64,000 nucleotides of DNA from a virus (IMGVR_UViG_3300025930_000008:43023-107022); one strand, 5' to 3'. Shown: positions 1-38,163, numbered from the stretch's first letter. Made by a program: numbers and translations. Notes: generated from the letters alone by a model not told the origin.

Positions 1-99
1 ATACTCCCCCCAATACTTCAATGCATCGGCTTCGCTCACCACTCGGCCATACAGACCGTAGTAGTGATTCAAGATAAGGTATCTGACCTTAGTCTTGCA

Positions 100-170
100 A
101 GGCAAGGACGGGAGTCGAACCCGTGTTACAGGTTTTGCAGACCCGCGCGTAGCCATTCCGCCACCTTGCC
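100..170 (-). tRNA. tRNA-Cys(GCA)
   Basis: Reverse complement GGCAAGG...loop CTGCAAA...GGTTCGACTCC...CCTTGCC-T; no encoded CCA. Confidence 0.93.
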
Positions 171-284
171 ATTACGTCGTAGACATTCCTCACGGTCACA
201 ATTACATGCGTTCTGACAAACGAAACCCTTGTGACACTCACAGTCTTTGATGGGCTGTTCACAAATAGTACATTTCCATACCAT
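126..284 (-). CDS. Cys-rich microprotein (52 aa), stop codon lies inside tRNA-Cys
   Basis: MVWKCTICEQPIKDCECHKGFVCQNACNCDREEC; ATG 2 nt after the tRNA-Asn discriminator. Confidence 0.55.
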   Translation of the reverse strand: MVWKCTICEQPIKDCECHKGFVCQNACNCDREECLRRNGKVAEWLRAGLQNL

Positions 285-286
285 AG

Positions 287-358
287 CTCGCCGGGTAGGA
301 CTTGAACCTACAACCATTCGGTTAACAGCCGAACGCTCTGCCATTGAGCTACCGGCGA
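287..358 (-). tRNA. tRNA-Asn(GTT)
   Basis: TCGCCGG TAGCTCAATGGCAGAGC...CTGTTAA...GGTTCAAGTCC...CCGGCGA-G. Confidence 0.95.
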
Positions 359-609
359 CTGTTGATCCAACTATCTAGACACGCCTTATGAGTGGGCAGT
401 AACTCCCAATCAGCGTGCCAAGTACCCTGCACAATGTCAAAGGTTTCCGTACCTTCGTCTGACCACTCGCCACCCATGCGTTGTATTTTACACGGGATTC
501 CCTGGCGTCCTTCCTGAGCCTGTTCAACTGTAATGATACGCCAGATCGCACATTCGCTTTTATCAAAGCGGTAGTTTGCATATATTCTACCGACTAGCGG
601 CTCTTTCAT
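349..609 (-). CDS. hypothetical protein (86 aa), stop inside tRNA-Asn
   Basis: ORF fills the Lys-Asn spacer; ATG 1 nt after the tRNA-Lys discriminator. Confidence 0.6.
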   Translation of the reverse strand: MKEPLVGRIYANYRFDKSECAIWRIITVEQAQEGRQGIPCKIQRMGGEWSDEGTETFDIVQGTWHADWELLPTHKACLDSWINSRR

Positions 610-610
610 A

Positions 611-683
611 TGCCCCCAACAGGGATCGAACCTGTGACCTTGAGATTAAGAGTCTCCTGCTCTACCGGCTGAGCTATAGGGGC
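611..683 (-). tRNA. tRNA-Lys(CTT)
   Basis: Canonical cloverleaf, loop CTCTTAA. Confidence 0.95.
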
Positions 684-685
684 GA

Positions 686-740
686 TGATTGGTCATTCCC
701 CTTACCCCTAGGGAATCGTTACTGGATGGGCAACCAATCA
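686..740 (-). ncRNA. candidate small structured RNA
   Basis: Terminal 8-bp inverted repeat TGATTGGT/ACCAATCA plus internal ATTCCC/GGGAAT hairpin; strand assumed from context. Confidence 0.3.
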
Positions 741-747
741 AGTTGTA

Positions 748-827
748 TGGCGGGTGGAGGAATCGAACCTCATTACGCTCTCGCCAGCTAGGTTATGAGC
801 CTTGCTGCCCAAACCTGGGCACCCGCG
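748..827 (-). tRNA. atypical tRNA with CAT anticodon (initiator-like acceptor, mini D arm, long variable region)
   Basis: CGCGGGT G CCCA GGTT TGGG CA GCAAGG CTCATAA CCTAGC ... TGAGG TTCGATT CCTCC ACCCGCC A. Confidence 0.7.
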
Positions 828-841
828 TCGTAAATTTGCTA

Positions 842-927
842 CGGAGAGTGGGGGATTTGAACCCCCGGTACCCACTGGATACTCCGTCTTAGCAGGACGG
901 TGCATTAAGCCACTCTGCCAACTCTCC
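842..927 (-). tRNA. tRNA-Ser(GCT)
   Basis: GGAGAGT acceptor, loop CTGCTAA, long variable arm, G73. Confidence 0.95.
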
Positions 928-1113
928 CTGTGTGATACGTGGCACCCACGTACCCCTTTTAACTAAGGCGAAAAACTCTATCAACGTACACTTAGAACTA
1001 TCCGTCAATCCATCTACACGGCCGTCTGTGTAAGTCCAATAAACTCTTTCCGTCTTAGGATCATAGAGATAATCCTTCACCATTGCGTTCGCTTCCCAAC
1101 GAAAAGAAATCAT
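889..1113 (-). CDS. hypothetical protein (74 aa), stop inside tRNA-Ser
   Basis: ORF fills the Arg-Ser spacer; ATG 1 nt after the tRNA-Arg discriminator. Confidence 0.55.
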   Translation of the reverse strand: MISFRWEANAMVKDYLYDPKTERVYWTYTDGRVDGLTDSSKCTLIEFFALVKRGTWVPRITQGELAEWLNAPSC

Positions 1114-1114
1114 A

Positions 1115-1186
1115 CGGCCCCGGTGAGAATCGAACTCACATCTATCCCTTAGGAGGGGATCGTTCTGTCCATTATACTACAGGGCC
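1115..1186 (-). tRNA. tRNA-Arg(CCT)
   Basis: ATCCC CTCCTAA GGGAT anticodon arm; GTTCGATT T-loop. Confidence 0.93.
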
Positions 1187-1188
1187 AG

Positions 1189-1241
1189 AAGCAGGGCATT
1201 TCAGCCCCACCCACGTCACCGCTTTAGGACAACGGCTGCCT
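1189..1241 (-). ncRNA. candidate D-armless tRNA mimic
   Basis: AGGCA...CCGTT GTCCTAA AGCGG...GGGC TGAAAT GCCC TGCTT. Confidence 0.3.
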
Positions 1242-1242
1242 G

Positions 1243-1446
1243 TCAGATATCCATAGCGCACTGGTTAACGCAATCCCGACAACAATTGCACACCGTATCG
1301 TAATCGCCACCGATTTCCTCTGCATACGGACAGCCATGAGGAATCTCTCCCTCATTACCGCAGTTACAGAGCGGACTGATTGCCGATAACAACCAGTCTT
1401 TGACAACCTGCTTGTAAATATGCATACGTATTTGCACAGCAGGCAT
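1243..1446 (-). CDS. Cys-rich small phage protein (67 aa)
   Basis: C-terminal CNC...HGCPYAEEIGGD...CNCCRDC...CAMDI pattern; the A of ATG is the tRNA-Ile discriminator. Confidence 0.7.
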   Translation of the reverse strand: MPAVQIRMHIYKQVVKDWLLSAISPLCNCGNEGEIPHGCPYAEEIGGDYDTVCNCCRDCVNQCAMDI

Positions 1447-1518
1447 AGGCCAGGATGGATTTGAACCATCGACCCGCACCTTATAAGAGTGCCGCTCTAA
1501 CCCCTGAGCTACTGGCCC
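1446..1518 (-). tRNA. tRNA-Ile(TAT)
   Basis: GGGCCAG acceptor, GCACT CTTATAA GGTGC anticodon arm, A73. Confidence 0.9.
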
Positions 1519-1527
1519 AATTAGTTA

Positions 1528-1706
1528 GAGGATCGTATATGGGGGACTTACTTCATGGATAGGTACGCACTACGCCGGGGCGACCACACCCCTCTCGGCC
1601 AGCACGCATACTCCTAGATGTAGTCAACATCGTTAGTGACCTATATCAATCCGCTTACCCTTATCCCACCTGCGCACTGTGGGCGGCAATTATCCGTCCG
1701 ATCCTC
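1528..1706 (-). ncRNA. candidate ~180-nt multibranched ncRNA
   Basis: 8-bp terminal stem GAGGATCG/CGATCCTC, several internal hairpins, no ORF in the track, begins 1 nt after tRNA-Thr. Confidence 0.5.
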
Positions 1707-1707
1707 A

Positions 1708-1779
1708 AGCCCGCGAGGGGAATCGAACCCCTATCCCTGCTTTACGAAAGCAGTATAATAGCCGTTATACTACGCGGGC
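1708..1779 (-). tRNA. tRNA-Thr(CGT)
   Basis: GCCCGCG acceptor, CTGCT TTCGTAA AGCAG. Confidence 0.93.
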
Positions 1780-1782
1780 GAC

Positions 1783-1875
1783 TTACTTATCAGGCACAAT
1801 CATAGTGCCTTTACAGATGGGACATACCCTACCATTGTTAAGGATGCCCCCTTTCATCTTGCATTTACAATCCAT
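1783..1875 (-). CDS. 30-aa Zn-finger-like microprotein
   Basis: MDCKCKMKGGILNNGRVCPICKGTMIVPDK*, CxC...CxxCxG; ATG 2 nt after the tmRNA discriminator; not in the ORF track. Confidence 0.55.
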   Translation of the reverse strand: MDCKCKMKGGILNNGRVCPICKGTMIVPDK

Positions 1876-1877
1876 AG

Positions 1878-2327
1878 TGGAGGTGGGCGGAATTGAACCG
1901 CCGTCCTGCGTACACTTGTTGACTCAGTTTCTAGCAGCTTTGTAATACAATACTGGCAACCGGTTCTGAGCCGCCTACCCTTACTCTACCACAAGATACG
2001 GCAGACTCATGCTAGTGACTGTTTGAAATAGTCGGGAGCAGCCTGTTGTTCCGTACACCCTGCTGTCGAGATTACTCACCACGCAATGGAAATACCATTA
2101 GAGTGGAGCCGAGTAAGCCAATTAGATTGACCGTCTAATCTTTCCAAACAAGGATTTGGGACTTTATACCCCGGCCACGCTTTCTGTTCCTAGGTCCGTG
2201 GCTCCTGACCCGAGCGGACTAAGCCGCTAGAGCAAACGTATGAGTGTCTGCAATTATTGTTAGTGGTAGGCCACTACCCGCTGCACTAAGGCAACCGCAT
2301 CTTACACAGTCGATGCCTGTCACCCCC
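1878..2327 (-). ncRNA. ssrA: tmRNA, tag (A)ADTHTFALAA at 2251-2219
   Basis: 5' GGGGGTGA...TCGAC; 3' GACGGCGGTTCAATTCCGCCCACCTCCA with G3:U70; ATAATT upstream of resume codon GCA; tag ends ALAA-TAG. Confidence 0.95.
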
Positions 2328-2332
2328 ATGAT

Positions 2333-2399
2333 TATCAGCCTCCACCTAGCCTTATTAGACTAACGTCTAGCTTACGGCCTCGCTCTAGATTTGCTGACA
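2333..2399 (-). ncRNA. candidate structured RNA (three-way junction)
   Basis: TGTCAGC/GCTGATA closing stem, internal TAGAC/GTCTA hairpin. Confidence 0.3.
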
Positions 2400-2418
2400 C
2401 GGAGCGAATTAAAGTTTA

Positions 2419-2452
2419 TGCCGGATTTCTTGGACGGCTCCGGCAACCGCCC
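2419..2452 (-). ncRNA. H-type pseudoknot
   Basis: S1 GGGCGGT/GCCGTCC, S2 GCCGGA/TCCGGC, A-rich loop AAGAAA. Confidence 0.45.
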
Positions 2453-2457
2453 ATAAG

Positions 2458-2520
2458 GAGTTTATGAAAGGTGGTACCTCAACAAGACCGCGATATTCGC
2501 CTTGTTCCTCTCATAGACTC
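2458..2520 (-). ncRNA. candidate structured RNA
   Basis: GAGTCTATGA/TCATAAACTC closing stem with inner AACAAG/CTTGTT hairpin. Confidence 0.3.
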
Positions 2521-2533
2521 CACCAAGTTATAC

Positions 2534-2662
2534 GAGAGTCCACTGTGCCGTAGCCACTCCGAACGGTTCCTGCCGTCCCGCACTAGCCTCACGGTCTAGG
2601 CGATGGTCGGGAGACAATCTCCCCCTTGGGGCAGTCCATCCCAACTTAGAAGTAGAACTCTC
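2534..2662 (-). ncRNA. candidate ~130-nt multibranched ncRNA
   Basis: GAGAGTTC/GGACTCTC terminal stem; internal GGGAGA/TCTCCC, GATGG/CCATC and GGACGG/CCGTTC helices. Confidence 0.4.
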
Positions 2663-2665
2663 TAG

Positions 2666-2735
2666 TAGACCGGGCAGGATTCGAACCTGCAATGAACAAT
2701 GATAAAGATTGTTTGTGTACCGTACACACCGGTCA
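2666..2735 (-). tRNA. non-canonical tRNA-like gene, anticodon TTA (ochre)
   Basis: TGACCGG T GTGT ACGGT ACAC A AACAAT CTTTATC ATTGTT CATT GCAGG TTCGAAT CCTGC CCGGTCT A. Confidence 0.7.
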
Positions 2736-2802
2736 AGCCCCGGCATAGGGTTCCCGCCCTATGTTACTCCGGGGTCGTCCACGGACAATTAGTCGATGGA
2801 CA

Positions 2803-2874
2803 TGGGCCGCACTGGAATCGAACCAGTGACTTCCTGCGTGTCGAGCAGGCGTTCTACCGCTGAACTAGCGGCCC
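2803..2874 (-). tRNA. tRNA-Val(GAC)
   Basis: CCTGC TCGACAC GCAGG; C at position 33. Confidence 0.92.
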
Positions 2875-2881
2875 TAGTTAC

Positions 2882-2912
2882 GTGAGCTAGCTTACTCACT
2901 TCGCTAGCTCAC
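2882..2912. repeat. perfect 10-bp inverted repeat / hairpin
   Basis: GTGAGCTAGC...GCTAGCTCAC. Confidence 0.6.
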
Positions 2913-2973
2913 ACCCAAAACAACGCCTGATTCTGACGATGCGTGAGCGGGATGGTTGACCAACCAGAACAAC

Positions 2974-3002
2974 AGTTTAGCCGATGTTCTGGCGACTGTC
3001 AA
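2974..3002 (-). promoter_or_regulatory. sigma70/SigA-type promoter
   Basis: TTGACA-N17-TAAACT. Confidence 0.75.
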
Positions 3003-3004
3003 GC

Positions 3005-3166
3005 TTATCGGGACGAGAGGTAAACGCCTTCTATCTTTGCCCCACTGTACTCCTGCTTGTCAATCGCGTCTGCAACAGCAAGACCAACATCTTGGCGCAA
3101 GTCAAACTTCTTGATAGGCGCCAACGTCGTCGGAATGGTGATGACCACCGTGATTGTATTATCCAT
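3005..3166 (-). CDS. hypothetical protein (53 aa), probably leaderless
   Basis: MDNTITVVITIPTTLAPIKKFDLRQDVGLAVADAIDKQEYSGAKIEGVYLSSR*; extended -10 TGC-TACGTT 6 nt before ATG; not in the ORF track. Confidence 0.6.
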   Translation of the reverse strand: MDNTITVVITIPTTLAPIKKFDLRQDVGLAVADAIDKQEYSGAKIEGVYLSSR

Positions 3167-3192
3167 GCTAAAAACGTAGCACGACTGTCAAG

Positions 3193-3264
3193 TGGACCCG
3201 GCTGGGATCGAACCAGCGACCTTCTGCTTGTAAGGCAGACGTTCTCCCACTAAACTACGGGTCC
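3193..3264 (-). tRNA. tRNA-Val(TAC)
   Basis: TCTGC CTTACAA GCAGA. Confidence 0.95.
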
Positions 3265-3299
3265 GCAGCAGGCTCCCTCATGGGGCGTACCTCCCATAG

Positions 3300-3328
3300 A
3301 CACTACCCGACAGGTTCCCGCCTGTCAA
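3300..3328 (-). promoter_or_regulatory. sigma70/SigA-type promoter embedded in an inverted-repeat region (3268-3343)
   Basis: TTGACA-N17-TAGTGT. Confidence 0.55.
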
Positions 3329-3405
3329 GGCGAGGGAACCTGCGTGCTTAATCCCCGTGGGTACGCACGGATTAGGTACTGCGATGGCCCCTGACTGATG
3401 GGCAG

Positions 3406-3477
3406 AGCCGTCACCGGGAATCGAACCCGGCTTACTAACTTACCAAGCTAGGGTAATATCCGATATACTATGACGGC
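3406..3477 (-). tRNA. tRNA-Thr(GGT)
   Basis: GCCGTCA acceptor, CTAGC TTGGTAA GTTAG. Confidence 0.9.
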
Positions 3478-3480
3478 TTA

Positions 3481-3554
<74 letters not shown>

Positions 3555-3719
3555 TTACAAATGACTGAATACATAAGTCACAGCAGAGATACCATGACTA
3601 ATGAAACTCATGATACCGGTGGCAGCAGCCACCTTGAGGTACCACAATTCCTTACGGCTGAGCGTAACCTTTTCCTCAGCCTTCTTTATGGCTTTAAGTT
3701 TCGCTTCTTCCTTGTCCAT
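3555..3719 (-). CDS. small protein with C-terminal hydrophobic segment
   Basis: MDKEEAKLKAIKK...LWYLKVAAATGIMSFISHGISAVTYVF; overlaps the upstream membrane gene. Confidence 0.55.
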   Translation of the reverse strand: MDKEEAKLKAIKKAEEKVTLSRKELWYLKVAAATGIMSFISHGISAVTYVFSHL

Positions 3720-4044
3720 TGAGCGCCTTGCTTTGACGCCGCTTATACCCAAAGATCAAGTAGAGCGCGACATTCCCTGCGATGAATCCCACCGCATTCA
3801 GCGGGATATAGTAGGAAAACCCTGTGTCAAGTCTCTCAACGTTGTTAGTCAACGCTGACGTGGCTAAGAGCAGATACGAAACGGCAATGAGTACAACATG
3901 GAGCGGCAGCAGAGCTACATATCCTCCCTGCTTGCGCAGTTTGAGGTAGCTCTGGGTATATACCACCACAATCAGCACCACAAACGACACAATGCCTCCG
4001 TACAGAAAGATATTCAAGTATCGGAGGCCATCCAAAATGCTCAT
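3694..4044 (-). CDS. membrane protein, 3 predicted TM helices
   Basis: Three hydrophobic stretches and a basic C-tail; holin-like topology. Confidence 0.7.
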   Translation of the reverse strand: MSILDGLRYLNIFLYGGIVSFVVLIVVVYTQSYLKLRKQGGYVALLPLHVVLIAVSYLLLATSALTNNVERLDTGFSYYIPLNAVGFIAGNVALYLIFGYKRRQSKALNGQGRSET

Positions 4045-4058
4045 GCTCTATTACCTAG

Positions 4059-4129
4059 CGGGGGATCGAGGATTTGAACCCCGAAGTTCGGGTTTGGAGG
4101 CCGACAGTTTACCATTAGCTTAATCCCCC
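4059..4129 (-). tRNA. tRNA-Trp(CCA)
   Basis: Loop CTCCAAA, G73; C31:C39 mismatch. Confidence 0.9.
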
Positions 4130-4171
4130 AGGAGCGCACGGAGGGAGCGCGAGATTCTCTCACCCCTCGGT

Positions 4172-4249
4172 TATGTGAACAGACTTGTCATACGCCGACT
4201 TCACGCGGGCGGATTCTAACCATAGACCCTAAGGCGTATAGTTCATATG
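4172..4249 (-). ncRNA. candidate structured RNA with T-loop-like motif
   Basis: ATATGAAC/GTTCACAT and TACGCC/GGCGTA stems enclosing GGTTAGAATCC. Confidence 0.35.
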
Positions 4250-4316
4250 TGACTATACCGCGAAGGGACTCCGTTTCCATCGAATACTCCTGAACGCATG
4301 GTGCCATCTGAAACAA

Positions 4317-4428
4317 TCGTCATTGCCACGCCGCTTTTCGCTACTTGTATACTGCCCTCCGGGGATCAATCCATCCAGACGCATACGTTTGCTCGCTACA
4401 GCCGTGCGCATGTATTGAGCAATGACGA
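4317..4428 (-). ncRNA. candidate ~110-nt ncRNA
   Basis: Perfect 10-bp terminal stem TCGTCATTGC/GCAATGACGA starting 2 nt after tRNA-Leu. Confidence 0.45.
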
Positions 4429-4430
4429 AG

Positions 4431-4512
4431 TACGCCCGGAGGGACTTGAACCCCCACACCTTTCGGCATCAGGACCTAAACCTGACGTGTCTACCGATTC
4501 CACCACGGGCGC
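4431..4512 (-). tRNA. tRNA-Leu(TAG)
   Basis: TCAGG TTTAGGT CCTGA, long variable arm. Confidence 0.94.
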
Positions 4513-4646
4513 TAGTACCGATAACGTTCAAGGAAGGGCTGTTATCGGTGTTATCGTGCGACTGCCATTGGACCATATTCATAGTCGAGAGCCTTGCGCC
4601 GCTGCATGATACCCCGGATTCCCGTCCGGCATATTCATGCCTGATA

Positions 4647-4729
4647 TGCGATCAGTGAGAGTCGAACTCACACGCCTGTTAGGGCACTGACCCCTCAAGC
4701 CAGCGTGTCTACCATTTCACCATGATCGC
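4647..4729 (-). tRNA. tRNA-Leu(GAG)
   Basis: CTGGC TTGAGGG GTCAG, long variable arm. Confidence 0.94.
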
Positions 4730-4743
4730 TAAAGATTTTGAAA

Positions 4744-4825
4744 TGGCGGGAGTAGGATTCGAACCTACGAAGGCATAGCCGTCTGATTTACAGTCAGATG
4801 CGTTTGACCGCTCCGCAACCCCGCC
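4744..4825 (-). tRNA. tRNA-Tyr(GTA)
   Basis: TCTGA CTGTAAA TCAGA, long variable arm. Confidence 0.95.
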
Positions 4826-4834
4826 GAATAAACA

Positions 4835-4950
4835 CTTGGGCACCTAGATTGGGTGCGACCCTTCTCTTTCAAGTCAACTTCCTCCTGCCTAGCCTTATCC
4901 GGGCAGATGGTTCGCCGTATCTACGGCTGATCTAGGAGTTGGCTCCCAAG
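4835..4950 (-). ncRNA. candidate ~115-nt ncRNA: long stem capped by a three-hairpin multiloop
   Basis: CTTGGG/CCCAAG, CCTAGAT/ATCTAGG, GCCGTA/TACGGC, CTGCC/GGCAG. Confidence 0.45.
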
Positions 4951-4985
4951 CTATGTAGTTTTTGTCAGTCTACCAGACTGTCAAG

Positions 4986-5058
4986 CGCCCCCGCCCGGAT
5001 TTGAACCGGGAACCTGCGGTTTAGAAGGCCGCTGCGCTATCCGTTGCGCCACAGGGGC
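4986..5058 (-). tRNA. tRNA-Arg(TCT)
   Basis: Loop CTTCTAA; C31:A39 mismatch. Confidence 0.93.
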
Positions 5059-5060
5059 AT

Positions 5061-5086
5061 AAAAAAGGCGACCCTCTTTGGTCGCC
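5061..5086 (-). terminator. intrinsic terminator
   Basis: GGCGACC AAAGAG GGTCGCC TTTTTT. Confidence 0.8.
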
Positions 5087-5120
5087 CCCGTCTTACACCT
5101 ATCGTATGGGTAGACGAGAG

Positions 5121-5186
5121 CTAGACCAGGGGCTTACGACCTCCGATAAAGGCGTCCCAATTCTGATGTTCGGTCGAATATCTCAT
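5121..5186 (-). CDS. possible 21-aa peptide MRYSTEHQNWDAFIGGRKPLV
   Basis: Short ORF between a promoter and a terminator; flanked by complementary AGACGAG/CTCGTCT. Confidence 0.25.
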   Translation of the reverse strand: MRYSTEHQNWDAFIGGRKPLV

Positions 5187-5248
5187 ACTCGTCTGATTCT
5201 TAGTGCAGGCGGGGCACCCGTTTTATAGGTCCCCGCGATGGTCGTTTC

Positions 5249-5276
5249 ACGATAGCAGATGGTCCGGTGGAGTCAA
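5249..5276 (-). promoter_or_regulatory. SigA-type promoter with extended -10
   Basis: TTGACT-N16 (ending TGC)-TATCGT. Confidence 0.55.
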
Positions 5277-5455
5277 GAGCGCCAACGCGCCAAGACGGAT
5301 CGGGGCACCTTCACCTTTGGCGAATGACCCTCAGGCCGATCACAAGGATAGCCGTCACCACCATTGCCGGGTGCCCACCAGACCACCCCATCCCACTTCA
5401 CGCGATAGATACAGTATCTACAATCAGCACTGAATCTATATACCGCAGGCTCCAC
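5273..5455 (-). CDS. small putative Zn-binding protein (start uncertain)
   Basis: CRYC...W...WW...C...H pattern; overlaps the nrdJ end. Confidence 0.45.
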   Translation of the reverse strand: MEPAVYRFSADCRYCIYRVKWDGVVWWAPGNGGDGYPCDRPEGHSPKVKVPRSVLARWRS

Positions 5456-7136
5456 CGACGCAGCGTTCTTCCGACTCTTCAAAGACCACGCCTTCCTGTT
5501 CACGCGCGACATTATAGCCGACCGCGCTCAAGGGCTGTCCGCCCCGCGCCCCGTCAGGATAGCAGGTCACGCCGCGAAGTCTAGGGAGATAATCATACAA
5601 CATCTTCCCAAAGTCCTCAACTTCATCCGGGTCTGTGATTACATACGGGAGGTTGATCGTGGAGGATATTCCGTGATCGACGTACTGCTGTACGAAGGCT
5701 TGAAACGCAATCCTTTTTTCCACATTGTATGAGAGCGAGTACGCATCTTCAATCTGGTCTGGCGCCACTCCATACTCGTCAACCAATCTCTTTGCGGTGG
5801 GATCAACGACGTACTGGTACTTCCATGTTTTGCCTGACGCCAGGTATCGACGTTTGTACGCCACACAGAAGATCGGTTCAATGCCAGTAGTTGTTTCAGC
5901 GATAATCCCGATTGTGCCTGTTGGAGCAATTGCTCTAGTCTTTGCAGGCCGAGTAAGGTTATGGCGATCTGCCCAATAGTGAGCGTACTCTGTCGCCTTT
6001 GTGTAGTATTCCAACCACTCTGCCAACTCTTCGTTTGGCTCATATGAATAACCTCGCTTGAGCAACCACTCATGAATTCCCATCAGGCCAAGGCCAAGAC
6101 GCCTGTTCTTCTGACGAACAGCGTCAACCTTTTCGTAAGGGACATGACTATAAACCGTGCCTGCTAATAGGAAAAGAGTCGCATGGAATACAGCATCACC
6201 AAAGTCATCTAGGCTATCAAACCGTGCTAGATTTAGACTACCTAAATTACAAATGTCTGAATCATCTGTAGAGGTAACCTCCGTGCAAGCGTTGCGTAGA
6301 GTTTCACCTGCGTTCTCCCCTGTGTCAATAGAGAACCCTGGCTCTGCCGTCTTGAGCATTCGCTTGACCGTAGACGAATAAACATGCACTGCCTGGTCAT
6401 GTAGCTCATGCCAGTCGTTCTCGTATGCTACAAAAAATTCATCGTCTAGAATAATGGATACATTAGTCATATCCAACGTGGCCGGGAAGTTGAAATCCTT
6501 CTCTTTGAGGGCGCGTACCTCTGCGGGCCAGTCCTTAACGCGAATAAACTTAATAGCATCAGGATGGGACCACTTAAGGCCAGCCCAAATAGCAGAACGA
6601 CGACTACCACCCTGCATGATATGACGGCCACACTCATTGACCATTTCCATCAACGAAATAGGACCGGAAGCGAATCCACCAGTGCGCTTGATAGGTTCAC
6701 CCTCTGCACGCACATCAGAATAGTCTATACCGATACCGGCACCTGTCATCAGCGCCATAGACGCCCGGTAGAGTAGGTCAGACCATTCCTCGCGTGAGTC
6801 GCCAGCCTTTAACAACAAACAGTTCTGCGTCTGGTGTAGGTCACGACCTGAGGCGTACAGGTAACGACCACCCGGCATGAACTGCCTGTTCGTAATAAGA
6901 TTCAATACTCGCTGATACTCAGGAGTTGTATGGTCATAATCCAGGGCACCCAAAACATGCTTAGTAACACGCTCTGCTGTGTCCTCCCACGACTCCACTG
7001 GATTGCCGTTTTCGTCCTTCCAAGCGTACTTCTGTTCGTAAATAGATGATGCGAATGGACTCATGTCTACTTCCCGTAGTTCCTTGACTGTTACGGGAAG
7101 TGAGTCCCTCTCTGCTAGTGCCACTGTCGGTTGCAT
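5436..7136 (-). CDS. nrdJ: class II (B12-dependent) ribonucleotide reductase
   Basis: FMPGGR, NC, GG-RRSA, NACTE active site, CNLGSLNL, IAPTGT, C-terminal CVGGAC; no nrdB nearby. Confidence 0.88.
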   Translation of the reverse strand: MQPTVALAERDSLPVTVKELREVDMSPFASSIYEQKYAWKDENGNPVESWEDTAERVTKHVLGALDYDHTTPEYQRVLNLITNRQFMPGGRYLYASGRDLHQTQNCLLLKAGDSREEWSDLLYRASMALMTGAGIGIDYSDVRAEGEPIKRTGGFASGPISLMEMVNECGRHIMQGGSRRSAIWAGLKWSHPDAIKFIRVKDWPAEVRALKEKDFNFPATLDMTNVSIILDDEFFVAYENDWHELHDQAVHVYSSTVKRMLKTAEPGFSIDTGENAGETLRNACTEVTSTDDSDICNLGSLNLARFDSLDDFGDAVFHATLFLLAGTVYSHVPYEKVDAVRQKNRRLGLGLMGIHEWLLKRGYSYEPNEELAEWLEYYTKATEYAHYWADRHNLTRPAKTRAIAPTGTIGIIAETTTGIEPIFCVAYKRRYLASGKTWKYQYVVDPTAKRLVDEYGVAPDQIEDAYSLSYNVEKRIAFQAFVQQYVDHGISSTINLPYVITDPDEVEDFGKMLYDYLPRLRGVTCYPDGARGGQPLSAVGYNVAREQEGVVFEESEERCVGGACGI

Positions 7137-36025: not shown

Positions 36026-38163
36026 TACGAGCTAGTCCATGTGTTCTGAGCGCGAGTCCTGATGAGGATGCCCGGTACGGCGCTCCACACACGCGCTACC
36101 TGACCGTCAATGTCTGCCTCAGTATTGAGCGTAGCCAAACGAGGCATTTCGTCATCCTTGAGGAAGAAGTCGTTATTGATAACATACTGTGAACCAGTAC
36201 GTGGAGCGCCTTCGCGCTCTGTTTCTACGATACGCGGGGCGGTAGTCTCAGTGTTACCGGGAGTGTCTGAGGACCAACGAACATTGTCTACGCCTGACAC
36301 AGCATGGATAGCCTGTAGGATATCTGACAACTGAATTACGTTGCCGAAATACTGACTGTCAAAGAAGTTATCTACAGCGGTCTTGACAGCAGCGTTCACC
36401 GCTGATGGGTTAGAGCCAGAGCTATACATGACCGTGATATCTAGTTTGAAGTAGCGCTCCCTAGCACGGTGGACTAGAATGTCTGTGGTGACCTGCTTAG
36501 CGGCTTCCAAGGCAGCCTGTAGGTCCACGATGTTCTTGTCGTAAATATAATTAGAGACTTCAATCGGGGTATACTGCGGGAACCCAGAAATGAGCGGACC
36601 AGTCCTCCCCAAATCTCCTACGTTGATCGCGCCCTTGCCGGTCGTGGCATTCATATTCCACTCGATGCCGTTACGAGCGCGGATCGTTCCGTGTAGCTCC
36701 GTAACATCTTCTACGAGCCAGTAATGCTCACCCTCGTAATAAATGGCCGTCTGGCCTCCACCGGTGACCACAATCTCAGAAGGTAAGTCAACGGCAGGCT
36801 GCCAGAACATCGGGAAGAATAGATTACCTATGGTCGGGAGAACATCGGGTTGTCCCACGCGACGGTAACTGCCTGCATAGTATTTGGTGGTGCTGGTATT
36901 GTTGAACGCTGCAACGGTCGAACTACCGGGCGATGGTAAGATGGTAGAAGCTACGGTGTCATTCGATCCGTCAATGAATACGTCTACACAGTTGGAGATG
37001 TTGCGTGTCTTGTCATTCCTAGATGACACAGACATATAGCTATGCTCAAAGAGAACAATGTCTCCCCAACGGACAGCCGTTACTGTAGCATCGGTGCTTG
37101 GATCAATGACGTTTAGGAATGTAATGTTTGGCTTATACGCTGAGGTTGGGTCGGCTGGGTCAGGGCCGATATCAGGGCCAACGTCTACATTGTAATAACG
37201 GTGAGCGTCACCGCGATCCTTAGCAACAGTGGTGGTGTTCAGTCTGTAGTCAATACCCTCACGCCAGAATACCGTGGCCGTTCCTGTGTTACCGTTACTG
37301 ACGAAGTTAGGCACCTCGGTGTAGGTATACTTAGAGTAAGGAATAGTTGATAGGGCGGTTGTCCATTCGTTGGAATTACCACCACCAGCTTCTAGAGCAG
37401 GGCCTACTCCTGTATTGACATTGATAGACTGAGAGTCATCCCCAAGAGGTACCTGTAGATATTCACGGTACCGACTGATAGGGCCAACTACGTTGACCTT
37501 CTTTGTGAAGGCGGCTGATAACGCGAGCGCGATGTACTGATCCTGCGTTCCGGCGAGGTTACGGAATACGGTGTTTTTGAACCGTACCTTGAGTTGGTCG
37601 TCGTCCTCCCCGTCGATCCCGCCCGTGATCGGCGCGGCGTTGTTGATGGTTTCGATGCCAAAGATTGCAGTAGCTGCATTTGTCGTGACCGCTCCTGCTG
37701 CAACATTTCCCGTACTTCCCGCGTAAATAGCTTGTACAGGAGCCTGGACCGTCGTTTGGCCTGCCAGGAGAGTAACGTCGAAAGTGGTTTCGTAGATAAC
37801 GTCCACGACGCCATCGAAGGAAGTCGTGACTCCCGGAGCCATAACCTGAGTGCCCGCCGGTATACGGATATCGTTACCCGACGTTGTTGCCCGTCCAAAG
37901 TCAACGAAACCTGTACTCTTGACGGCTTGTTGGCGTCCGAACCCAAATAGCGCAAGGAAGTTATCGAGGTTTGATCCTGTTTTTGTGTCAATGTCCAGCG
38001 CTCCCTGTAACTGTGTAAGGTCGATCTGAGCGTCTGACAACGCAGAAGCTACAGAGTCAAGAATCTTACGTTCTGGTGTACCTACCTCCGCAGAGATAGA
38101 TGGGTCCAGCATCCGTAGCTGGGCCAGCATTTGTACGACTAAATCTGCTTGTGTAACTGCCAT
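36025..38163 (-). CDS. baseplate J-like protein
   Basis: LD...ALFG..R..A, IPAGT.V, G..GNV.AG, GG.D.EDD.QL..R. Confidence 0.9.
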   Translation of the reverse strand: MAVTQADLVVQMLAQLRMLDPSISAEVGTPERKILDSVASALSDAQIDLTQLQGALDIDTKTGSNLDNFLALFGFGRQQAVKSTGFVDFGRATTSGNDIRIPAGTQVMAPGVTTSFDGVVDVIYETTFDVTLLAGQTTVQAPVQAIYAGSTGNVAAGAVTTNAATAIFGIETINNAAPITGGIDGEDDDQLKVRFKNTVFRNLAGTQDQYIALALSAAFTKKVNVVGPISRYREYLQVPLGDDSQSINVNTGVGPALEAGGGNSNEWTTALSTIPYSKYTYTEVPNFVSNGNTGTATVFWREGIDYRLNTTTVAKDRGDAHRYYNVDVGPDIGPDPADPTSAYKPNITFLNVIDPSTDATVTAVRWGDIVLFEHSYMSVSSRNDKTRNISNCVDVFIDGSNDTVASTILPSPGSSTVAAFNNTSTTKYYAGSYRRVGQPDVLPTIGNLFFPMFWQPAVDLPSEIVVTGGGQTAIYYEGEHYWLVEDVTELHGTIRARNGIEWNMNATTGKGAINVGDLGRTGPLISGFPQYTPIEVSNYIYDKNIVDLQAALEAAKQVTTDILVHRARERYFKLDITVMYSSGSNPSAVNAAVKTAVDNFFDSQYFGNVIQLSDILQAIHAVSGVDNVRWSSDTPGNTETTAPRIVETEREGAPRTGSQYVINNDFFLKDDEMPRLATLNTEADIDGQVARVWSAVPGILIRTRAQNTWTSS

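What the first reader, a model, noticed from the sequence alone, without database searches (positions are those of the whole stretch)
126..2327. tRNA-punctuated microprotein mRNAs: leaderless at the 5' end, non-stop at the 3' end, next to a phage tmRNA
Seen: five ORFs have their ATG 0-2 nt after the discriminator base of the upstream RNA (284 after Asn, 609 after Lys, 1113 after Arg, 1446 using the Ile discriminator itself, 1875 after tmRNA). None has room for a Shine-Dalgarno outside the RNA gene. Three of them (126-284, 349-609, 889-1113) have their stop codon inside the next tRNA gene. Established: CCA-less tRNAs can be cut endonucleolytically after the discriminator (RNase Z), RNase P cuts at +1, actinobacteria translate leaderless mRNA, and non-stop mRNAs are tmRNA substrates. 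Inference: tRNA maturation switches these mRNAs on (leaderless AUG) and then makes them non-stop, so the products are tagged, possibly by the phage's own tmRNA. This would be a mitochondria-like punctuation circuit tying protein output and half-life to tRNA processing.
Basis: partly seen in the sequence, partly recalled or inferred. Interest (0 to 1): 0.78.

Follow-up and report, generated by a model that had tools for sequence, protein, structure and literature searches.

The report
Phage genes flush against tRNA genes
In the tRNA cluster of this uncultured soil phage and its relatives, small genes start one or two bases after a tRNA and often end at or inside the next one, so cutting out the tRNAs probably releases ready-made, nearly leaderless messages as in mitochondria; the added idea of a built-in "non-stop and tag" circuit is not supported.

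Summary
All five ATGs lie where stated, 0-2 nt after the discriminator of tRNA-Asn, Lys, Arg, Ile and the tmRNA. Three of the ORFs have their stop inside the next tRNA gene. The tmRNA is real and its tag is ADTHTFALAA.

The pattern is not chance. In this phage plus five relatives, 15 of 97 RNA genes carry N73-(C)T-ATG opening an ORF of at least 40 codons (expected 2.5%, P=2e-8). Relatives alone give 10 of 68 (P=8e-6), and an antisense control gives 1 of 97. The tRNA order is conserved while the ORFs differ, so the junction has arisen repeatedly. One flush ORF, after tRNA-Thr(tgt), is orthologous between two phages.

My best reading (0.55) is tRNA punctuation: excision of the tRNAs frees short mRNAs with a 0-2 nt leader.

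Caveats: I could obtain no RNA data. The host is unknown, so an actinobacterial host is unproven. The phage uses Shine-Dalgarno sites only weakly anyway. The five ORFs are ORFans.

Stops inside tRNAs look like a by-product of tight packing, with 4 being the tRNA's own U8-A9-G10. Only 1 of 10 flush ORFs in relatives runs into a tRNA, and the one orthologue found stops outside. A designed non-stop/tmRNA circuit gets about 0.08.

This scan has reported the same flush-ATG pattern before in at least eight other phage genomes.

The parts
100..170 (-). tRNA-Cys(gca). It holds the stop codon (128-126) of ORF52.
   Evidence: ARAGORN; Rfam 63 bits
126..284 (-). ORF52, a Cys-rich microprotein candidate. 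Its ATG lies 2 nt (CT) after the Asn discriminator. Its last 14 codons and stop are encoded by tRNA-Cys. It has no alternative start.
   Evidence: codon score neutral at 0.02 per codon; no family match; this exact sequence is not in the protein collection
287..358 (-). tRNA-Asn(gtt), discriminator G287, followed by C-T-ATG. Its U8-A9-G10 (351-349) is the stop of ORF86.
349..609 (-). ORF86. Its ATG lies 1 nt (T) after the Lys discriminator, and this is the only start that gives the full protein. Its stop is the UAG at positions 8-10 of tRNA-Asn.
   Evidence: codon score 0.16 per codon, against 0.28 for real and -0.15 for spurious ORFs; called as a gene on 11 contigs; best single-sequence AF2 model pLDDT 80, beta-barrel plus helix, the other four models 40-60
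611..683 (-). tRNA-Lys(ctt), discriminator A611
748..827 (-). tRNA-Met(cat). No ORF follows it.
842..927 (-). tRNA-Ser(gct). It holds the stop (891-889, U36-A37-A38) and the last 12 codons of ORF74.
889..1113 (-). ORF74. Its ATG lies 1 nt (T) after the Arg discriminator. An alternative in-frame ATG at 1083 has GGGAAG upstream.
   Evidence: codon score 0.17; an 86%-identical variant, P0004, keeps the frame and both Met codons; the AF2 model is poor, pLDDT 52
1115..1186 (-). tRNA-Arg(cct), discriminator G1115
1243..1446 (-). ORF67, a Cys/His-rich protein. Its ATG shares the discriminator A of tRNA-Ile. An alternative ATG lies at 1425. Its own stop is 56 nt before tRNA-Arg.
   Evidence: the Cys pattern matches an ORF in an unrelated phage contig, L044, at 35% over 60 aa from residue 10 on
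1446..1518 (-). tRNA-Ile(tat). The Rfam ends are given here; ARAGORN gives 1445-1519.
1708..1779 (-). tRNA-Thr(cgt)
1783..1875 (-). ORF30 (CxC...CxxC). It fills the tmRNA to tRNA-Thr spacer exactly. Its ATG lies 2 nt (CT) after the tmRNA discriminator and its stop ends 3 nt before tRNA-Thr.
   Evidence: not conserved after the syntenic tmRNA of the relative G001
1878..2327 (-). Phage tmRNA with G3.U70. It ends ...CCACCUCC-A-CUA, where CUA stands in place of CCA and its A is the A of the ORF30 ATG.
   Evidence: Rfam RF00023, 68.8 bits against a gathering score of 47
2219..2251 (-). tmRNA tag reading frame, ADTHTFALAA plus UAG
   Evidence: Rfam alignment; ORF list

Best explanation
The stretch is part of a 13-kb, one-strand array of 37 CCA-less tRNA genes, a tmRNA and an RNase P RNA-like gene in an uncultured soil myovirus. 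Small, fast-turning-over but mostly real phage genes, many of them zinc-ribbon-like microproteins, sit in the spacers between the tRNAs. They are packed flush on both sides. The ATG lies 1-2 nt after the discriminator, as N73-(C)U-AUG where CUA is a degenerate CCA. The stop lies within about 10 nt of the next tRNA's +1 or a few codons inside it.

Shown here:
- the anatomy described above;
- its statistical excess over chance;
- its recurrence in relatives at different tRNAs;
- one orthologous flush ORF;
- no extra SD complementarity in the tRNA 3' ends that carry a flush ATG.

Inferred:
- The array is transcribed as long precursors.
- RNase P cuts at +1, and a 3' endonuclease cuts at or just after N73/C74, or directly before the AU. 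Together they excise the tRNAs and so release each spacer as a short mRNA with a 5'-monophosphate and a 0-2 nt leader.
- Ribosomes translate this mRNA in leaderless mode.
- Where the stop lies inside the next tRNA, molecules cut by RNase P before the ribosome arrives become non-stop and would be rescued by tmRNA. I regard this as a tolerated by-product of packing, not a designed switch.
For: Excess over chance:
- ATG at offset 1-2 with an ORF of at least 40 codons occurs at 15/97 RNA genes. Expected is 2.5%, P=2.4e-8.
- Relatives only: 10/68, P=8e-6.
- The offset histogram peaks at 1 (5 cases) and 2 (10 cases), against a background of 0-3 per position.
- All 16 ATGs at offsets 1-2 open at least 30 codons, where about a third would by chance.
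- The antisense control gives 1/97.

Recurrence: the tRNA order is conserved between G000 and G001, yet the flush ORFs follow different tRNAs. This points to repeated origin of the junction.

Reality of the ORFs:
- The orthologous ORFs after tRNA-Thr(tgt) are 42% identical from M1 on in both phages.
- Paralogous CxxC..DYLCxxCR motifs validate the frames.

Initiation: there is no SD enrichment in the tRNA 3' ends that carry a flush ATG.

Stop side: 31 ORFs of at least 45 codons end within -10..+1 of a tRNA 5' end, and 20 end inside the tRNA, out of 231 frames examined.

Transcription units: no consensus promoter or terminator lies on the minus strand within 126-2327, apart from a hairpin inside the tmRNA.

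The phage's own tRNA-maturation equipment:
- an RNase P RNA-like gene, 40 bits, E=1.6e-12;
- a CCA-adding/poly(A) polymerase family domain, 93 bits.

Literature:
- tRNA precursors are cut between C74 and C75 in Streptomyces and Propionibacterium (PMC4681348, PMC3848588).
- A 5'-terminal ATG or GTG is necessary and sufficient for leaderless initiation in mycobacteria (PMC4633059).
Against: - There are no RNA 5'/3' end or ribosome data.
- The host is unknown.
- The phage's genes in general show only weak SD use. The mean anti-SD duplex energy is -3.1 to -4.1 against -2.8 to -2.9 kcal/mol for random sites. Many starts are TAATG-coupled. Absence of an SD is therefore not special here.
- The leader varies between 0, 1 and 2 nt, and is 3-4 nt in a few cases. 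This does not fit one fixed cut plus a strict 5'-terminal AUG, unless the cut is set by the AU itself or 1-2 nt leaders are tolerated.
- The five ORFs of the finding are ORFans with intermediate codon scores of 0.02-0.17.
- ORF74 and ORF67 have alternative internal starts.
- In the cultured Streptomyces phage GiJojo, annotated island genes start 22-36 nt after the tRNAs and only one possible CTATG start exists. The architecture is lineage-specific.
Confidence: 0.55

Rival explanations
1. Compaction only. The ORFs are real, but they are translated from the unprocessed polycistronic precursor by the same SD-independent initiation that most genes of this phage use. The ATG sits 1-2 nt after the tRNA only because positions 74-75 are needed for tRNA 3' maturation and the genes are packed as tightly as possible. 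tRNA excision then merely destroys the mRNA.
For: - The phage's genes have little SD signal and are often start/stop-coupled.
- ORF ends are also flush with the next tRNA, as general compaction would predict.
- Most 3' trailers start with C or CT whether or not an ORF follows.
Against: - The array is not generally compact. ORF-free spacers of 64-337 nt lie in the same stretch.
- An AUG 1-2 nt from a folded acceptor stem leaves no single-stranded upstream track for a 30S subunit (my own knowledge of initiation complexes).
- In mycobacteria an internal AUG without an SD is not used (PMC4633059).
- The junction has arisen repeatedly at different tRNAs.
Confidence: 0.25
2. tRNA maturation first switches the mRNAs on through a leaderless AUG. 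It then makes them non-stop by design, so that the products are tagged, preferentially by the phage's own tmRNA, and output and half-life are tied to tRNA processing.
For: - Three of the five ORFs, and about 8-10 ORFs in the whole array, have their stop inside the next tRNA.
- Run-ins are more frequent in this phage than in its relatives: 10 against 5 own-stop ORFs, compared with 10 against 26, Fisher P=0.013.
- The same array encodes a tmRNA with an ALAA-ended tag, an RNase P RNA-like gene and a CCA-adding family enzyme.
Against: - The feature is not conserved. Only 1 of 10 flush ORFs in relatives runs into a tRNA.
- The orthologue of the Thr(tgt) ORF stops 255 nt before tRNA-Ala in G001.
- G001 has a syntenic tmRNA-like gene (36 bits) but fewer run-ins.
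- Seven of 20 run-ins use U8-A9-G10, the share expected from a random frame.
- The run-in counts include overlapping, probably spurious frames.
- Important genes such as the endolysin keep their own stop 2 nt before the tRNA.
- No SmpB was found in the phage.
- Tagging with ...ALAA would destroy the proteins, which makes the genes pointless unless very brief expression is the aim.
Confidence: 0.08
3. Some or all of the five ORFs are not translated. The spacers are processed RNA by-products or structured RNAs, and the open frames are accidental.
For: - There are no homologues outside near-identical copies.
- There are no family matches.
- Codon scores of ORF52, ORF67 and ORF30 (0.02) lie between those of real and spurious ORFs.
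- The AF2 model of ORF74 is poor.
Against: - As a class, the flush ATGs are tied to long open frames far beyond chance.
- There is an orthologous pair and shared zinc-ribbon motifs.
- The ORFs fill the spacers exactly.
- ORF67 shares a Cys/His pattern with another phage's ORF.
- The ORF74 variant keeps its frame across 10 substitutions.
- One AF2 model of ORF86 reaches pLDDT 80.
Confidence: 0.08
4. Termination-reinitiation across tRNAs. A ribosome that ends inside a tRNA sequence keeps that tRNA unfolded and scans on to the next flush AUG. This would couple ORF74, ORF86 and ORF52 on the precursor.
For: - ORF86 ends at position 10 of tRNA-Asn, and ORF52 starts 65 nt further on.
- The phage uses start/stop coupling widely.
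Against: - Most flush ORFs, here and in the relatives, are not preceded by an ORF that runs into the tRNA.
- Three tRNAs lie between ORF74 and ORF86.
- Such coupling would sacrifice the tRNAs.
Confidence: 0.03

Closest known systems
tRNA punctuation of animal mitochondrial transcripts (Ojala, Montoya and Attardi 1981, from my own knowledge; cited in PMC4633059, reviewed in PMC4394434)
   Same: - ORFs are flanked on both sides by tRNA genes on one strand.
- The start codon lies 0-2 nt from the upstream tRNA's 3' end.
- There is no SD.
- The ORF end abuts the next tRNA.
- Excision by RNase P and a 3' endonuclease would release leaderless mRNAs.
   Different: - This is a bacterial virus.
- The spacers hold dispensable, rapidly replaced microprotein genes rather than core genes.
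- Only about 15-20% of the tRNAs carry a flush ORF.
- Stops are borrowed from inside the tRNA, not completed by polyadenylation. The nucleotides left at the RNase P site (AG, GC) would not give UAA.
- Processing is not shown here.
Leaderless mRNAs of Actinobacteria (PMC4633059, PMC3848588, PMC4681348)
   Same: - An AUG sits at or next to the 5' end with no SD.
- The products are small proteins.
- A 5'-terminal RTG suffices for initiation in mycobacteria.
   Different: - The known cases arise by transcription initiation at the start codon. Here the 5' end would be made by RNA processing and would carry a monophosphate and 0-2 extra nt.
- The host of this phage is not known to be an actinobacterium.
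Processing-made leaderless mRNAs: MazF-cleaved mRNAs in E. coli (mentioned in PMC3848588, PMC5416887)
   Same: An endonuclease cut just upstream of the AUG creates a translatable leaderless mRNA.
   Different: MazF is a stress toxin that leaves a 5'-OH. Here ordinary tRNA maturation would make the cut.
Phage-encoded tmRNAs: mycobacteriophage Bxz1 group, Wildcat, Bacillus phage G (PMC4131195)
   Same: A full tmRNA with a tRNA-like domain and a tag frame ending in ALAA, lying in a phage tRNA cluster.
   Different: - There is no detectable sequence match to any tmRNA in the phage collection.
- A microprotein ORF is flush with its 3' end.
- A link to non-stop phage mRNAs is only conjecture.
tRNA islands of cultured Streptomyces phages such as GiJojo (PP725410.1)
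   Same: - Many CCA-less tRNAs lie on one strand with small genes between them.
- The 3' trailers start with C74.
- The RNR is 57% identical to this phage's RNR.
   Different: Annotated genes start 22-36 nt after the tRNAs and end 8-15 nt before the next one. Only tRNA-His has a CTATG in frame with a gene.

Membership tests
tRNA-punctuated transcription unit (mitochondrial model) | Protein-coding frames flanked directly by tRNA genes on the same strand | tested here: met
   All 38 RNA genes lie on the minus strand and ORFs fill the spacers
tRNA-punctuated transcription unit (mitochondrial model) | Start codon within a few nt of the upstream tRNA 3' end, more often than chance | tested here: met
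   15/97 against 2.5% expected, P=2.4e-8; replicated in relatives at 10/68; antisense control 1/97
tRNA-punctuated transcription unit (mitochondrial model) | ORF 3' end abuts the next tRNA, with minimal or no 3' UTR | tested here: met
   31 ORFs end within -10..+1 of a tRNA 5' end, and 20 end inside the tRNA
tRNA-punctuated transcription unit (mitochondrial model) | One long precursor cut by RNase P and a 3' endonuclease into tRNAs and mRNAs | not testable with these tools
   No RNA data. The only indirect point is that no consensus promoter or terminator lies within 126-2327 on the minus strand
tRNA-punctuated transcription unit (mitochondrial model) | Released mRNAs are translated as leaderless mRNAs | not testable with these tools
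   Needs Ribo-seq or reporters
tmRNA (Rfam RF00023) | Score over the family's gathering threshold across the full model | tested here: met
   68.8 bits against 47, model positions 1-374
tmRNA (Rfam RF00023) | tRNA-Ala-like acceptor with a G3.U70 pair | tested here: met
   The acceptor is GGGGGUG / CACCUCC, so G3 pairs with U
tmRNA (Rfam RF00023) | Internal tag frame that starts with Ala and ends in a hydrophobic ALAA-type degron plus a stop | tested here: met
   ADTHTFALAA plus UAG at 2251-2219, aligned to the consensus tag region
tmRNA (Rfam RF00023) | SmpB partner | tested here: not met
   No PF01668 match in the 67%-complete phage record. The host's SmpB would be needed. This does not argue against the RNA being a tmRNA
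Leaderless mRNA (actinobacterial type) | ATG or GTG exactly at the RNA 5' end | not testable with these tools
   Sequence allows it only if the cut falls directly before the A. Cuts after N73 or C74 would leave 1-2 nt
Leaderless mRNA (actinobacterial type) | No Shine-Dalgarno upstream | tested here: met
   Anti-SD duplex energy of flush tRNA ends is -3.3 against -2.4 for other tRNAs, P=0.27. The phage's genes in general are also SD-poor
Leaderless mRNA (actinobacterial type) | Host known to translate leaderless mRNA efficiently | tested here: inconclusive
   Host unknown. The only links to actinophages are distant. No WhiB. No related bacterial locus
Non-stop mRNA / trans-translation substrate | No in-frame stop before the RNA's 3' end | tested here: inconclusive
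   True for ORF52, ORF86 and ORF74 only if RNase P cuts before translation ends. On the precursor they have stops
Non-stop mRNA / trans-translation substrate | Products carry the tmRNA tag | not testable with these tools
   Needs proteomics

The most novel reading that the evidence does not exclude
The phage carries a self-contained RNA-processing expression module. Its own RNase P RNA, CCA-adding-type enzyme and tmRNA act on one tRNA array so that tRNA excision both activates microprotein mRNAs (by exposing a leaderless AUG) and caps their output (by removing the stop, after which tmRNA tags the product). This would give a brief pulse of protein timed by tRNA maturation.
Probability: 0.08. 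Interest if true: 0.85.

Novelty: new variant of a known kind. Interest (0 to 1): 0.6.

Why it matters
If tRNA excision really makes translatable leaderless mRNAs in phages, tRNA arrays are more than codon-supply devices. They would also be expression platforms, in which any small gene dropped into a spacer is expressed without a promoter or a ribosome-binding site. That would explain the rapid turnover of microprotein genes between conserved tRNAs.

It would also be a bacterial-virus counterpart of mitochondrial punctuation. Gene callers that require an SD or forbid overlap with tRNAs would need to change: ORF52 and ORF30 are absent from the protein collection, and callers disagree on the starts of ORF74 and ORF67.

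I found no paper in the held library that describes this in phages. This scan, however, has already reported the same pattern in at least eight other phage genomes, so this window adds a further lineage and a different junction, (C)U-AUG, rather than a first sighting.

Tried and rejected
- Homology for the five ORFs gave nothing useful. Pfam and PHROGs gave nothing below E=0.01. The word-indexed search of 5.8 billion proteins found only the proteins themselves. The exhaustive search with ORF74 found one 86% variant plus short repeat-motif hits to Ig-like surface proteins, which I regard as spurious. Viral-contig scans found nothing. The metagenome scan gave only 99.7-99.9% identical contigs, too close for dN/dS.
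- Structure. The best AF2 model of ORF86 has pLDDT 80, but the five models disagree, and Foldseek found no PDB match with E<=0.001. The ORF74 model has pLDDT 52 and is uninformative.
- Host. No WhiB. No bacterial genome locus related to the endolysin. There is no near match to any record in the phage collection beyond a tRNA-Pro, and the tmRNA region gave no match at all.
- An SD hidden in the tRNA 3' end is rejected as a general explanation, although the tRNA-Lys acceptor strand GGGGG could serve for ORF86.
- A promoter inside each tRNA was not tested directly. Consensus promoter matches in 1-5500 are at chance level (6 found, 5.5 expected) and none lies in 126-2327 on the minus strand.
- Mitochondria-style completion of stops by polyadenylation is rejected. 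The nucleotides left at the RNase P site are AG or GC, not U or UA.
- ARAGORN's tmRNA tag (GQSNWL...) is rejected in favour of the Rfam-aligned ADTHTFALAA.
- I considered linking run-in frequency to the presence of a tmRNA. I dropped this because the genome-wide search missed the weak tmRNA of G001, so absence in the other relatives is not established.

Full report
WHAT THE WINDOW IS

The window is bases 43023-107022 of a 107-kb IMG/VR virus record, which CheckV rates 67% complete. It encodes a tail sheath, a DnaE-type polymerase, a helicase and an RNR, so it is a myovirus.

- The tail sheath is only 27-30% identical to those of Rhodococcus, Gordonia and Mycobacterium myoviruses.
- The RNR's closest cultured-phage relative is an Acidobacteria phage at 59%. 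Several Streptomyces phages follow at 55-58%.
- Near-identical contigs come from two JGI metagenomes.
- The host is unknown. No WhiB was found, and no related bacterial locus was found.

The finding lies at the downstream end of a 13.3-kb array, genome 34766-48080. The array holds 37 tRNA genes and one tmRNA, all on the minus strand, and none encodes CCA. The array also contains an RNase P RNA-like gene (40 bits, below Rfam's gathering score, E=1.6e-12). Elsewhere the phage encodes a CCA-adding/poly(A) polymerase family domain. I found no RNase Z or SmpB.

CHECKING THE OBSERVATION

I fixed each discriminator by acceptor-stem pairing and by Rfam's ends. The junctions read as follows:

- Asn: ...CCGGCGA-G-CT-ATG
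- Lys: ...TGGGGGC-A-T-ATG
- Arg: ...CGGGGCC-G-T-ATG
- tmRNA: ...CACCTCC-A-CT-ATG
- Ile...CTGGCCT-ATG, with the discriminator as the A

The stops of ORF52, ORF86 and ORF74 lie 45, 10 and 39 nt inside tRNA-Cys, tRNA-Asn and tRNA-Ser. ORF67 stops 56 nt before the next RNA, and ORF30 stops 3 nt before it. Every coordinate in the finding is correct.

The Rfam alignment of the tmRNA places the tag as ADTHTFALAA. It also shows that the CUA after the discriminator aligns with the consensus CCA, so the A of the ATG stands at position 76. Two more flush ORFs lie upstream of the window, after tRNA-Ala(tgc) and tRNA-Leu(caa).

IS IT MORE THAN CHANCE?

Within the stretch, 5 of the 8 RNAs that have at least 60 nt of downstream spacer carry an ATG at -1..+2 (P=1.6e-4).

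I then used the neighbouring RNR gene to fetch related phage contigs and took five records with tRNA arrays.

- Pooled, 15 of 97 RNA genes have an ATG at offset 1 or 2 that opens at least 40 codons. The expected share is 2.5% (P=2.4e-8).
- The relatives alone, an independent replication, give 10 of 68 (P=8e-6).
- The histogram of offsets has 5 and 10 cases at offsets 1 and 2, against 0-3 elsewhere.
- All 16 ATGs at these offsets open at least 30 codons, although only a third of ATGs in the spacers open even 40.
- The mirror-image control, antisense ORFs leaving tRNA 5' ends, gives 1 of 97.

The order of the tRNAs is nearly the same in this phage and in its closest relative G001, whose RNR is 75% identical. 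The flush ORFs nevertheless follow different tRNAs:

- Here: Ala, Leu(caa), Asn, Lys(ctt), Arg(cct), tmRNA.
- G001: Pro, Val(tac), Cys, Lys(ttt), Arg(gcg).

The ORFs are also unrelated to each other. The junction has therefore been created repeatedly, which is what selection for that exact position would produce.

ARE THE ORFs GENES?

As a class, yes.

- Beyond the statistics, the ORF after tRNA-Thr(tgt) is orthologous in G000 and G001. It is 42% identical over 52 residues, and the alignment starts at the flush Met in both. The ATG lies 4 nt after the discriminator in G000 and 3 nt after it in G001.
- Several flush ORFs in both phages share a CxxC...DYLCxxCR zinc-ribbon motif, which validates their frames.

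Individually, the five ORFs of the finding are weaker.

- They have no family and no homologue other than near-identical copies.
- Their codon-usage scores are 0.16-0.17 for ORF86 and ORF74, and 0.02 for ORF52, ORF67 and ORF30. Pieces of real genes score 0.28 +/- 0.14 and spurious ORFs score -0.15 +/- 0.15.
- ORF74 has an 86%-identical variant with ten mostly conservative changes and an intact frame.
- ORF67 shares a Cys/His pattern with an ORF in another phage contig.
- One of the five AF2 models of ORF86 reaches pLDDT 80, without a PDB match.
- ORF74 and ORF67 each have a second in-frame ATG, at 1083 and 1425. The flush start is obligatory only for ORF52, ORF86 and ORF30.

HOW IT MOST LIKELY WORKS

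Functional tRNAs must be cut out of their precursor at +1 and at or just after the discriminator. Whatever else happens, the spacer RNAs will therefore exist with a 5' end next to the AUG and a 3' end next to, or before, the stop.

The tRNA 3' strands upstream of flush ATGs are no more complementary to the anti-SD than those of other tRNAs. They are also locked in the acceptor stem. A 30S subunit therefore has no landing track on the folded precursor.

The simplest mechanism is that the processed fragment is translated in leaderless mode. The literature supports two of the steps:

- In Streptomyces and Propionibacterium, tRNA precursors are cut between C74 and C75 (PMC4681348, PMC3848588). Here such a cut would leave U-AUG or AUG.
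- In mycobacteria, a 5'-terminal ATG or GTG is necessary and sufficient for initiation, whereas an internal AUG without an SD is not used (PMC4633059).

The offset varies between 1 and 2 nt, and is occasionally 3-4 nt. This does not sit well with a single cut fixed to the tRNA. A cut placed directly before the AU would remove the difficulty. An RNase E-type enzyme could make such a cut, since that enzyme prefers a U two bases downstream of the scissile bond. That preference is from my own knowledge and the idea is untested.

WHAT WEAKENS THIS READING

The phage's ordinary genes are themselves poor in SD.

- Upstream regions of the 51 longest ORFs bind the anti-SD no better than random sites.
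- Thirty-nine tightly packed starts do so only slightly better (-4.1 against -2.9 kcal/mol, P=0.017). Many of these are TAATG overlaps.

The host may therefore initiate largely without SD, and 'no room for an SD' is not in itself diagnostic. This keeps alive the rival that the flush position reflects packing only.

Against that rival, the same array has several ORF-free spacers of 64-337 nt. In addition, the cultured Streptomyces phage GiJojo has the same kind of island but leaves 22-36 nt leaders. Flushness is thus a trait of this lineage and not a general consequence of having genes among tRNAs.

THE NON-STOP AND tmRNA HALF

ORF ends are also flush. Across the six records, 31 ORFs of at least 45 codons end within -10..+1 of a tRNA 5' end, and 20 run into the tRNA. 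Seven of those 20, four of them in this phage, stop at the tRNA's own U8-A9-G10. That is the one-in-three share expected if the entering frame is arbitrary.

- Among flush-start ORFs, 5 of the 7 in this phage run into the next tRNA, but only 1 of 10 in the relatives does.
- The Thr(tgt) orthologue ends in tRNA-Ala here but 255 nt before it in G001.
- Run-ins are somewhat more frequent in this phage: 10 against 5 own-stop ORFs, compared with 10 against 26 in relatives (P=0.013). The counts include overlapping, probably spurious frames.
- G001 also has a tmRNA-like gene at the syntenic place (36 bits).
- The endolysin and other larger genes keep their own stop 0-8 nt before the tRNA.

I conclude that stops inside tRNAs are what remains when a tightly packed gene loses its own stop. 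Molecules cut by RNase P before the ribosome arrives would indeed be non-stop and would be rescued by tmRNA. Nothing indicates that this is a selected circuit or that the phage tmRNA is dedicated to it.

COMPARISON WITH WHAT IS KNOWN

The closest known system is the tRNA punctuation of animal mitochondrial transcripts. The anatomy tested here meets its sequence-level criteria. The RNA-level criteria could not be tested.

Phage tmRNAs are known (PMC4131195). Leaderless mRNAs and mRNAs made leaderless by cleavage are known. I found no paper in the held library that describes tRNA-flush genes in phages.

This scan has already reported the pattern in at least eight other phage genomes, mostly as N73-C-ATG in Streptomyces phages. 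Other notes on this same genome list the borrowed stops, the RNase P RNA and the zinc-ribbon motif. I re-derived the parts that I use.

VERDICT

The leaderless-by-processing reading is plausible but unproven (0.55). The non-stop/tagging circuit is unlikely as a design (0.08). The finding is a new variant of a known kind and of moderate to high interest.

Noticed in passing
window 2666-2735 (-): A tRNA-like gene with anticodon UUA, which would read the stop codon UAA. It scores 36 bits against Rfam tRNA, and its acceptor stem has one mismatch. TAA is the commonest stop of the phage's long ORFs (45 of 80). It is either a possible ochre suppressor or a decayed tRNA.
   Followed up: partly
genome 37087-37358 (-), i.e. 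5.7-5.9 kb before the window start (L113): An RNase P RNA-like gene inside the tRNA array. It scores 40 bits against RF00010, below the gathering score of 100, with E=1.6e-12. Its 3' part overlaps the longest version of a 122-codon ORF.
   Followed up: partly
genome 15090-15503 (-) (L117): A PolyA_pol/CCA-adding family domain (PF01743, 93 bits) inside a 1198-aa ORF. This fits a phage whose 37 tRNA genes all lack CCA.
   Followed up: no
window 3183-3192 and 4976-4985 (-); also three tRNAs of G001 (L007): The same 10-mer, CTTGACAGTC, follows the discriminators of tRNA-Val(tac) and tRNA-Arg(tct) directly. CTTGAC also follows three tRNAs in the relative. These may be -35 boxes of internal promoters. 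The consensus scan did not flag them.
   Followed up: no
whole record: The phage's genes show only a weak Shine-Dalgarno signal, and many starts overlap the previous stop as TAATG. The host probably initiates largely without SD.
   Followed up: partly
genome 35729-35945 (-) and G001 37897-38106 (+): An orthologous 69-72 aa zinc-ribbon ORF flush after tRNA-Thr(tgt) in both phages. CxxC..DYLCxxCR proteins recur in both tRNA arrays.
   Followed up: partly
window 1520-1707 and 2328-2664 (-): Spacers of 188 and 337 nt with no ORF of note on the tRNA strand. They could hold structured RNAs. I did not examine them.
   Followed up: no
L087, L088 against genome 42266-42490: Near-identical metagenome contigs (99.7-99.9%) lack about 35 nt and about 77 nt of spacer next to tRNA-Ser(tga) and tRNA-Phe. 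Spacers therefore gain and lose DNA between otherwise identical genomes.
   Followed up: no
L007 16214-16764 (+): The relative G001 has a divergent tmRNA-like gene (36 bits, below the gathering score, E=1e-12) at the syntenic place between tRNA-Val(gac) and tRNA-Thr(cgt). The genome-wide search had missed it.
   Followed up: partly
L116 13072-13253 (Streptomyces phage GiJojo, gene 50): tRNA-His is followed by CTATG in frame with annotated gene 50, whose annotated start lies 30 nt further on. The gene may start flush with the tRNA.
   Followed up: no
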